From: Eledone cirrhosa
Lineage: Eukaryota
Direction of reading: 5' to 3'
Length of the DNA stretch: 64,000 nucleotides
NCBI GenBank assembly: GCA_964016885.1
Contig: OZ024754.1
Span: 16,120,001-16,184,000 of the forward strand
In this document: piece by piece, positions 60,939 through 61,546 of the stretch
How the letters are laid out: each line of letters opens with the position of its first letter
How positions within the stretch are numbered: position 1 is the first letter of the stretch
The notes under the pieces: model-generated
Seen by the model: the letters and a program-made list of their open reading frames with translations, nothing else
Databases searched by the model: none
What the model was told of the DNA's origin: nothing
Made by a program: the position numbers and the translations under genes

Positions 60939-61545
60939 TGGTGGCTGCCAACTCGTTTTCGAGTACGGCCACTACTTTATATCCATGTAGGAGAACCCCT
61001 ACTGATGCGCTGAACGAGTGTGACTTTTTAGTCCAGCCAGCGACTTGAAAGCTCTGGTACAAACACTACACTTGTGACAATTATTGACACATAGTGCTGG
61101 GCCCATGGTACCATGTGACGACAAATGCAGAGAGATTTCCAGATATAAAGCAATGCCTGTGCCGTGAAGCTTTTATAGTGAGCAAAGGCACTGCACAAAG
61201 CCAGTCCCACTCTCTTAACCAAGATGATATTTACCAAAAAGAAGAACAAGTCAACATCATTGGATACCATCAGGGATGCAGGTGTTATATCAGAGTTTTC
61301 CTTCTCCTAGAATTCTGCCTTGACAAAGGCTAAGGGGTCATCTCTCCCGGTGATTTTGGATGGCCATTGACTCTTAAGAGCTCCTTTGCCTTTTGACAGG
61401 TTTTGTTTTTAGTCCTGCAGGATGTCCAAAGTCACCCTCCTCACCAAGAAACCTTGGTGGGGTTGCCAGTTTAGTCGCCAACGACCCGACCATGGGACAG
61501 GTTGTACTGGAATACATGTTACCAGTAGCACCAACTGGTGACCTG

Positions 61546-61546
<1 letters not shown>
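60939..61546 (-). mobile_element. Bipartite non-autonomous BovB-like RTE derivative (5'UTR joined to last zinc finger and tail)
   Basis: 60999-61076 translates [25 protein letters not shown], homologous to the 53731 C-terminus; CTCG-AAAA-CGAG tail; RTE-5'UTR-like GGAGAAGGAAAACTCTGAT; no RT. Confidence 0.75.
61431..61546 (-). ncRNA. Twister-ribozyme-like motif at the element 5' end
   Basis: ACCTG-TCCC-AT-GGT-CGGGT ... GAG-GAGGG, with upstream TC-ACC able to pair GGT; cleavage-site loop imperfect. Confidence 0.45.

What the first reader, a model, noticed from the sequence alone, without database searches (positions are those of the whole stretch)
60939..61546. Ribozyme-headed mini-retroelement: RTE 5'UTR fused directly to last zinc finger and tail
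Seen: a 600-bp island between microsatellites with no RT and no pol III boxes. Its 3' ~180 bp encode one C2H2 finger matching the end of the BovB-like ORF at 53731 ([11 protein letters not shown]), followed by a CTCG/CGAG stem-loop tail. Its 5' end reads AGGTC-ACC..[TACTGG/CCAGTA hairpin]..ACCTG TCCC AT GGT CGGGT..[two hairpins]..GAG GAGGG. Known: twister ribozymes have a UCCC/GAGGG pseudoknot and occur in the 5'UTR of Schistosoma RTE elements; bipartite RTE derivatives exist. Inference: a non-autonomous element whose 5' end is made by self-cleavage from host transcripts. It lies sense to the host gene, and its boundary falls about where cleavage would occur. The ACC/GGT pairing in place of the usual GC/GC would be a variant.
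Basis: partly seen in the sequence, partly recalled or inferred. Interest (0 to 1): 0.75.

Follow-up and report, generated by a model that had tools for sequence, protein, structure and literature searches.

The report
Mini-RTE retroposon with conserved non-twister head
This 611-base stretch is one of about 17,000 copies of a miniature jumping element made of the two ends of a longer RTE retrotransposon; its start resembles a self-cutting twister RNA but fails the twister tests, and is instead a conserved, likely folded module that likely sets where the element's RNA begins.

Summary
The element is real and abundant: 17,245 exact junction matches. It is a 4.05-kb RTE retrotransposon (family E) with 3.44 kb deleted at a GTC microhomology (61119-61117). 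Copies show 5' truncation, an inversion and AT/ATGT microsatellite targets, as expected of LINE-type copying.

The twister reading is not supported. Full-length copies start at 61550, six bases upstream of the twister-equivalent cut. The cut-site AA is AG or GG. In four related head families the ACC covaries with a local hairpin, not with GGT. The P4 stem is broken in family F and the T1 pseudoknot in family B. Rfam finds no ribozyme, although canonical twisters head other RTEs in this genome.

The first ~125 bases are far better conserved than the rest of the 5'UTR and carry two covarying hairpins. The likeliest role is an internal Pol II start module (untested). A self-cleaving RNA outside Rfam is not excluded (about 0.17).

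Verdict: a new member of a known kind (bipartite non-autonomous RTE). The scan noted a twister-headed deleted RTE before, in another genome (e1-9832046, unchecked).

The parts
60940..61550 (-). Whole mini-element (family A): 5' 434 nt + 3' 180 nt of RTE family E; this copy belongs to a very young subfamily
61547..61550 (-). Element-encoded 5' TATG (TGTG in a subfamily); true 5' end at 61550; matches the microsatellite target
   Evidence: 12 of 30 flanks break just before TATG; inverted arm of L074 reaches ATG; non-microsatellite junctions such as L184 and 5' duplications
61416..61550 (-). Conserved structured 5' head shared by families A/E, B, C, F; twister-like motifs but not a twister fold
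   Evidence: A vs C identity 71/76 and 26/30 in nt 20-125 against 46/75 and 135/203 further 3'
61529..61540 (-).
61505..61527 (-). Hairpin b (TACTGG/CCAGTA); same stem letters in all four majority rows, so no covariation evidence; part of it was the search anchor
61484..61502 (-). Twister-P4/L4-like segment; ACCTG can instead pair with the 5' CAGGT; middle C at 61495 is T in 24 of 28 unbiased copies and G in family B
61442..61459 (-). Hairpin d (CACCAAG/CTTGGTG); variable loop; two-sided changes A-T to G-C and G-C to A-T in family F
61435..61442 (-). GAGGAGGG, conserved in all families; followed by GT (GTAAGT, splice-donor-like, in family F)
61117..61415 (-). Rest of the parent's 5'UTR, including a segment (61356-61150) shared at about 69% with family D
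61117..61119 (-). Deletion junction: GTC microhomology shared by the parent's 5' and 3' parts; 3.44 kb removed
61005..61070 (-). Last C2H2 finger of the parent ORF (C-x2-C-x12-H-x4-H), stop at 61001-60999; a passenger of the deletion, absent from sister minis B, C, F
60941..60972 (-). 3' terminal hairpin (inner CTCG/CGAG, outer GTGGC/GCCAC), likely the signal read by the RT; outer pair G-C here, A-U in family D
53572..55153 (-). 5'-truncated copy of autonomous RTE family D (99.6-99.8% identical to intact copies), likely helper of the young subfamily
47173..47240 (-). True 3' end (hairpin) of that D copy, separated from its ORF by a ~6.2-kb insertion

Best explanation
The stretch is a high-copy bipartite non-autonomous RTE retroposon, the two ends of a 4.05-kb RTE joined at a GTC microhomology, which is likely copied in trans by RTE proteins and likely starts its RNA from an internal Pol II start module in its conserved head rather than by twister cleavage. 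SHOWN: parent and junction; 17,245 junction copies; fixed 3' end; fixed 5' end in half of the copies and scattered truncation in the rest; microsatellite flanks; failure of the twister pairings. INFERRED: (1) The RNA runs from about 61550 to the ...CCACCAU end. (2) RTE protein binds the 3' hairpin, nicks (AT)n/(ATGT)n DNA and primes on the terminal AU. (3) The cDNA copy of the 5' TATG anneals to the same microsatellite, giving uniform 5' junctions, as proposed for R2 elements that carry target sequence at their 5' end (PMC3774820, abstract). (4) The bulk (about 2% diverged) spread while parent E was alive, and the >99.5%-identical subfamily that includes this copy is now moved by family D, which has intact ORFs of the same young age and a homologous 3' hairpin. 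(5) The head is a portable 5'-end module, possibly a twister descendant that lost catalysis. Odds for what makes the 5' end: internal promoter 0.45, self-cleavage by a non-twister fold 0.17, twister variant 0.06, read-through or other 0.32.
For: Parent aligns over 1-434 (93.5-98.4%) and 432-611 (95.6-97.2%), both ends in 5 of the 9 E loci first fetched. Junction 22-mer: 8,646 + 8,599 matches, reversed control 0. Of 47 junction-picked copies (47 of the first 49 listed), 24 are full length and 23 truncated at 21 different positions, and 46 reach position 611. Twin-priming-type inversion in L074. TSD-like repeats average 9.8 nt against 5.1 in 500 shuffled pairings (max 7.6). Parent: 36 of 40 scored hits cover 600 nt or more of a 701-nt probe; 0 of 29 copies examined has an intact ORF (longest 863 aa). 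Family D: 677 pattern matches, 3 of 16 fetched with ~1,200-aa APE+RT+C2H2 ORFs, 99.6% identical to each other, 3' hairpin in 11 of the 12 with an ORF end. D has a fixed 5' start after TATG in 5 of 10 printed loci and no such head within ~3.9 kb in 20 loci, so a fixed start does not need this head. Family B joins the head to D's UTR segment and 3' end, so the head is portable. Kojima 2018 states that bipartite LINEs are very likely Pol II transcripts (PMC5786205 passages).
Against: No RNA data show a start site, a cap or a cleavage product, so the promoter step is untested. No intact E copy was found, but only 29 of roughly 36-40 were read, so the helper role of D is not exclusive. Only 2 of 47 TSDs of 7 nt or more contain non-microsatellite letters (control mean 0.13, max 2), and only 24 and 26 of 47 flanks pass a strict microsatellite cut. 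Covarying hairpins point to function as RNA, which a DNA promoter alone does not explain. T1 stays pairable (as G.U) in A, C and F, and three P2 pairs stay pairable in all families. The nested long-range helix I propose (CAGGT/ACCTG) has probability 0.00 in the family A ensemble and 0.41 in B and shows only a one-sided change.
Confidence: 0.72

Rival explanations
1. The head is a self-cleaving RNA of a fold not in Rfam (or a heavily rewired twister descendant) that cuts at the base of its first helix and frees the element from read-through transcripts.
For: The 5' end lies at the base of a possible first helix (nt 1-4 with 57-60), and the A>G changes at nt 2 and 7 keep G.U pairs. The 5' end sits at about the same place in families A/E, B, C and old family F, which lies mostly in ordinary DNA. 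Two hairpins covary; nt 20-125 are about 92% conserved against about 65% further 3'. A contig from another organism's run keeps nt 21-84 with 11 differences and unrelated flanks. RTE-clade elements are reported to carry 5' ribozymes (PMC5786205 passages; PMC8501958).
Against: No Rfam ribozyme hit at E<=10 on the A element or an F head. My HDV-like descriptor found 0 hits in 5 heads (no positive control). The first helix is not favoured in the A ensemble. Family D has a fixed start without this head.
Confidence: 0.17
2. One reading: an active twister variant with ACC/GGT in place of GC/GC makes the 5' end.
For: Motif order matches a twister and the likeness is above chance (0 of 40,000 shuffles). 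All P4, T1 and T2 pairs can form in family A/E. Canonical twisters head other RTE families in this genome (9 matches, 40-50 bits, below the 67.2 gathering score).
Against: Copies begin 6 nt upstream of the cut, whereas the canonical twister RTEs here match each other from about the AA. NAA is CAG or CGG; 0A and 1A variants did not cleave. First P2 pair G.G in all families; T2 lost in F (2 of 17, 0 of 17); P4 mismatch in F (1 of 23 paired); T1 G.G in B (1 of 12 paired). No twister model hit even at E<=10.
Confidence: 0.06
3. No dedicated 5' processing: RNAs are read through from upstream, and the reverse transcriptase or its cDNA joins the target at the TATG microhomology; the head serves RNA stability or RNP assembly.
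For: Both D and E lineages start after TATG. Copies often sit in tandem in each other's tails. Microsatellite flanks would hide extra repeat units.
Against: In pure (AT)n and non-microsatellite flanks only one TATG is carried. Family F has a similar start outside microsatellites.
Confidence: 0.2
4. A one-off deletion or chance island.
For: None.
Against: 17,245 copies of the same junction; near-identical element in runs of other studies.
Confidence: 0.01

Closest known systems
Bipartite non-autonomous RTE LINEs (Bov-A, RTESINE1/2, MAR4_MD, WALLSI3; Kojima 2018, PMC5786205, passages read)
   Same: Only the 5' and 3' ends of an RTE, joined by internal deletion; keeps the parent's extreme 5' end; no small-RNA head.
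   Different: Keeps a coding finger remnant in its 3' part; strong preference for AT/ATGT microsatellites; outnumbers its decayed parent roughly 400-500-fold; a family of sister minis shares one head.
Twister T-variants heading Perere-3 RTE in Schistosoma mansoni (Liu et al. 2021, PMC8501958, parts 2-4 of 9 read)
   Same: 5' terminal position on an RTE; similar motif order (CC.GUCCCA.G..CGG ... GAGGAGGG).
   Different: There the TSD abuts the AA at the cut and at least two A are needed; here 6 element bases precede the site, AA is AG/GG, and P2, P4, T1, T2 fail across sister families.
R2 with HDV-like ribozyme and upstream target sequence (Eickbush et al. 2013, PMC3774820, abstract only)
   Same: Target-like bases at the RNA 5' end go with uniform 5' junctions.
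   Different: R2 is rDNA-specific and has a proven HDV-like fold; no HDV-like fold was found here.
RTE-2_OV, an RTE with a C2H2 finger (Petrosino et al. 2022, PMC9115989, passages); microsatellite-associated RTEs of Lepidoptera (Tay et al. 2010, PMC2887409, abstract only)
   Same: Single ORF with endonuclease, RT and (in RTE-2_OV) a C2H2 finger; association with microsatellites.
   Different: No sequence comparison was made with either; the host taxon of this window was not determined.

Membership tests
Bipartite non-autonomous RTE | 5' part equals the 5' end of an RTE-type LINE | tested here: met
   nt 1-434 match parent E at 93.5-98.4%
Bipartite non-autonomous RTE | 3' part equals the 3' end of the same LINE; ORF deleted | tested here: met
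   nt 432-611 match E at 95.6-97.2%; 3.44 kb missing
Bipartite non-autonomous RTE | Amplified as a unit by retrotransposition | tested here: met
   17,245 junction copies; 23 of 47 5'-truncated; inversion; TSD-like excess
Bipartite non-autonomous RTE | No small-RNA (Pol III) head | tested here: met
RTE clade (parent E, helper D) | Single ORF with APE and RT, no ORF1, no RNase H | tested here: met
   D ORF of 1,212 aa: Exo_endo_phos, RVT_1, C2H2 only; E aligns to it over 1,182 aa at 57%
RTE clade (parent E, helper D) | RT phylogeny groups with reference RTE/BovB elements | not tested
   No reference RTE sequences were fetched; the clade label rests on architecture and on recalled motif likeness
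Twister ribozyme (type P1) | Match to Rfam twister models | tested here: not met
   No twister hit at E<=10; the same twister-P1 model finds 9 canonical heads elsewhere in the genome
Twister ribozyme (type P1) | N|AA at the cleavage site | tested here: not met
   CAG in A/E, C, F and CGG in B; 0A/1A variants inactive in PMC8501958
Twister ribozyme (type P1) | Element 5' end at the cleavage site | tested here: not met
   5' end 61550 against site 61545|61544
Twister ribozyme (type P1) | Pseudoknot T2 kept across relatives | tested here: not met
   Pairs in A/E; wobble in B, C; G.G in F (2 of 17, 0 of 17)
Twister ribozyme (type P1) | Pseudoknot T1 kept across relatives | tested here: inconclusive
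   Pairable in A/E, C, F (often G.U); G.G in B (1 of 12 paired); no two-sided change
Twister ribozyme (type P1) | Stems P2 and P4 intact | tested here: not met
   First P2 pair G.G in all; P4 C.A in 20 of 23 F copies
Twister ribozyme (type P1) | Self-cleavage | not testable with these tools
   needs an in vitro assay
HDV-like ribozyme | Nested double pseudoknot P1-P2-P3-P1.1 with U-C-C loop and C-N-R-A linker | tested here: inconclusive
   0 descriptor hits in 5 heads, descriptor written from recalled rules and run without a positive control; no Rfam hit

The most novel reading that the evidence does not exclude
The ~125-nt head shared by RTE family E and four mini-families is a self-cleaving RNA of a class not in Rfam, possibly evolved from a twister by re-pairing. 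It would cut at the base of its first helix so that the RNA starts with target-matching UAUG, which lets cDNAs join microsatellites precisely.
Probability: 0.17. Interest if true: 0.8.

Novelty: new member of a known kind. Interest (0 to 1): 0.42.

Why it matters
As an element it is ordinary in kind, but unusually well documented: parent, exact deletion, about 17,000 copies, a likely switch to an intact sister helper, and AT/ATGT microsatellite targeting. The open point is the head. One 125-nt module has been kept, with covarying hairpins, by at least four families that swapped everything behind it. That makes it a ready candidate for asking how RTE elements without a recognizable ribozyme define their 5' end. 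Natural variants and a canonical twister control from the same genome are in hand, so one transcription gel would decide between a promoter module, a dead twister relic and a new catalytic RNA.

Tried and rejected
Rfam E-value scans: 59500-62500 gave mostly microsatellite-driven miRNA hits and no ribozyme; the element alone and an F head gave no ribozyme. A 130-nt head DNA search of the genome returned nothing; the tool skips very common words, so this is no evidence. A pattern for a canonical finger preceding the junction found only a truncated mini-copy: the apparent upstream 'HLSSH' is 5'UTR sequence. The 654-aa open frame at C2:236981096 was microsatellite. The first parent pattern excluded family E by design and found D. 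The shuffle test used a threshold (13 of 17) above the observed match (12) and was redone. F counts include tandem copies of single loci; one search uses one head per locus (23 of 24 loci; rows failing an anchor were dropped, leaving 9-23 per pair). The JGI metagenome pattern scan gave one match in unrelated-looking sequence, taken as chance. No RNA holder was listed; the guessed-RNA contigs X1 and X2 cover the head only in part and show no start or end. Loose ends at 61134-61136 in X7/X8 sit at a GATC and are taken as library junctions (inference). The bacterial promoter scan is irrelevant here. Ruminski et al. 2011 (PMC3308841) is not held and is cited only through Kojima 2018. Helitron, tRNA-SINE, hammerhead, pistol and hatchet readings were considered from recalled features and dropped: parent LINE found, and no Rfam hit. 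Seven paper searches listed no description of this head; Repbase/Dfam were not available and no supplements were read, so the families may already be named there.

Full report
Observation. The island lies on the minus strand between long ATAC-type repeats. All quoted motifs are present. The last 180 nt encode one C2H2 finger that resembles the end of the RTE at 53859-53737, then a CTCG/CGAG hairpin. No tRNA or box B lies inside. No host exon was found among 96 of 144 open frames scanned, so the orientation claim is unverified. Positions below count from 61550 (nt 1).

Copy number and ends. A DNA search gave 2,302 candidates, and the 40 scored were all full length; that search favours full-length copies. 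An exact 22-mer across the junction has 17,245 matches and its reversed control 0. I fetched 47 of the first 49 listed junction hits. Of these, 24 are full length (17 start TATG, 7 align from nt 3, mostly a TGTG variant), 23 are truncated at 21 different positions, and median identity to the window copy is 96.6%. The window copy belongs to a young subfamily: 29 other top hits differ from it at the same two sites, and its marker at 61125 is in 2 of 47 unbiased copies. One copy has an inverted 5' arm. Downstream flanks repeat upstream flanks more than shuffled pairs do (9.8 against 5.1 nt), but only 2 such repeats contain informative letters. The 5' end is 61550: 12 of 30 flanks break just before TATG (counted by eye), parent copy L184 starts at TATG in non-repeat DNA, and 5' duplications restart at TATG after C, G or T. 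A few junctions begin at the ATG, so nt 2 is possible.

Parent and helper. A pattern joining the 5'UTR to the endonuclease start gave 28 matches, 9 of them a longer element, family E. E matches nt 1-434 and 432-611; the overlap GTC (61119-61117) is a microhomology, and 3.44 kb are missing. About 36 copies hold the ORF start. None of 29 read is intact, and most pairs are about 96% alike. The RTE at 53731 is a sister family D, 57% identical in protein: 677 pattern matches, intact ORFs in 3 of 16 fetched, 99.6% alike, with a homologous 3' hairpin whose outer pair is A-U where A has G-C. D starts at a fixed site after TATG, has a ~1.4-kb 5'UTR with a splice-donor-like GTAAG near its start, and lacks the head. 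Inference: E drove the bulk and D likely drives the young subfamily.

Is the head a twister? Canonical twister-P1 heads exist on other RTE families here. The A head matches their core at 12 of 16 and has GAGGAGGG downstream, in 0 of 40,000 shuffles (post hoc), so twister ancestry is plausible (about even odds, my estimate). It does not pass as a twister. Rfam gives no ribozyme hit at E<=10. The NAA is CAG or CGG, and Liu et al. saw no cleavage with 0 or 1 A, with TSDs abutting the AA (PMC8501958). Copies here keep TATGTC upstream of the equivalent site. Three further families share the head: B (head + D-type UTR segment + D-type tail), C (other tail) and old F (167 pattern matches including tandem arrays, mostly in ordinary DNA). 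Across them the ACC bases pair with nt 19-21 with two-sided changes (C-G in A/E, T-A in B and C, G-C in F). The proposed ACC/GGT pairs become G.G in F (2 of 17 and 0 of 17 paired). P4 has C.A in 20 of 23 F copies, T1 has G.G in 9 of 12 B copies, and the first P2 pair is G.G in every family. The middle T1 base is T in 24 of 28 unbiased A copies and in most of the depth of another run. Against my reading: T1 remains pairable through G.U in A, C and F, three P2 pairs remain pairable everywhere, and every P4, T1 and T2 pair can form in A/E itself.

What the head is. Nt 20-125 are 97 of 106 identical between A and one C copy, against 181 of 278 for nt 126-403 (a second C copy gives 95 of 106 and 176 of 278); recent swapping of heads could add to this. 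Hairpins at nt 11-22 and 92-109 covary. A nested fold pairing nt 1-10 with 49-60 fits all 41 pairs in A, E and B majority rows, but it is 7 kcal/mol above the minimum in A and has ensemble probability 0.00 there (0.41 in B), so it is a hypothesis. An HDV-like descriptor found nothing, without a positive control. A contig in a run of another coded organism keeps nt 21-84 only. In F the GAGG is followed by GTAAGT, which suggests a splice-donor or U1 site rather than a pseudoknot partner (inference from recalled consensus). Family B shows the head standing in place of D's long promoter-like UTR. I therefore read it as a portable 5'-end module, most likely an internal Pol II start region whose RNA also folds (0.45), with self-cleavage by an unknown fold as the bold alternative (0.17).

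Comparison. Bipartite non-autonomous RTEs are an established kind, and Kojima 2018 already links their retained 5' ends to possible ribozymes and Pol II transcription (PMC5786205, passages). Twister-headed RTEs are established for Perere-3. Target-like 5' bases giving uniform junctions are described for R2 (PMC3774820, abstract). Twister features were checked against passages of PMC6154101; passages of PMC10085705 report no further twister permutations. Seven library searches listed no paper on this head; Repbase, Dfam and supplements were not seen. The scan's own index had no look-alike sequence and one unchecked note of a twister-headed deleted RTE in another genome.

Verdict. Observation largely right, bipartite RTE reading confirmed, twister-variant cleavage not supported. 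New member of a known kind, interest 0.42, carried by the unexplained conserved head.

Noticed in passing
window 47173-55153 (-): The family D RTE copy is split: a ~6.2-kb two-ORF-looking LINE (about 47240-53420, not classified by a call) sits in the (ATT)n/T-run of D's 3'UTR and separates the ORF end (53731) from D's terminal hairpin (47205-47173).
   Followed up: partly
L031-L039 (e.g. G000:C4:96354674): RTE families headed by canonical twister-P1 ribozymes (40-50 bits, minimal P3), several in (AT)n; copies match each other from about the AA, and an endonuclease ORF follows. A ready positive control.
   Followed up: partly
L139, L140, L142, L150, L153: Family D has a fixed 5' start, a splice-donor-like GTAAG about 45 nt in and a ~1.4-kb 5'UTR; 3 of 16 fetched copies have intact ~1,200-aa ORFs at 99.6% identity, so it is likely active.
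   Followed up: partly
L302-L306, L314, L316; C12:6816106-7399366; C15:16905366; C17:10117977: The family F head has been amplified into tandem arrays with units of about 107 nt and 57 nt, a satellite derived from the head.
   Followed up: no
L078 (family B), L286 and L137 (family C), L284-L285 (a further tail type), L287-L316 (family F): At least four other short elements share the head but have different middles and tails; B has 3,742 first-look candidates. L187 looks like a decayed long parent of C.
   Followed up: partly
L045, L064, L065, L068, L198, L202, L215: Copies often sit head-to-tail in each other's ATGT tails, forming clusters.
   Followed up: no
window 2166-5366 (-), 16542-17903 (+), 9837-10616 (-), 33202-33837 (+), 30931-31254 (+): LINE copies whose APE+RT ORF carries a PHD finger after the RT domain; one has a 1,066-aa open frame.
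   Followed up: no
run X7 record covering window 61467-61530; run X2 record covering 61433-61479: Contigs from runs of other coded organisms keep only part of the head core with different flanks, suggesting the module occurs in further families.
   Followed up: partly
window 23145-25246: Two minisatellite arrays (28-nt unit, about 43 copies; 17-nt unit, about 48 copies).
   Followed up: no
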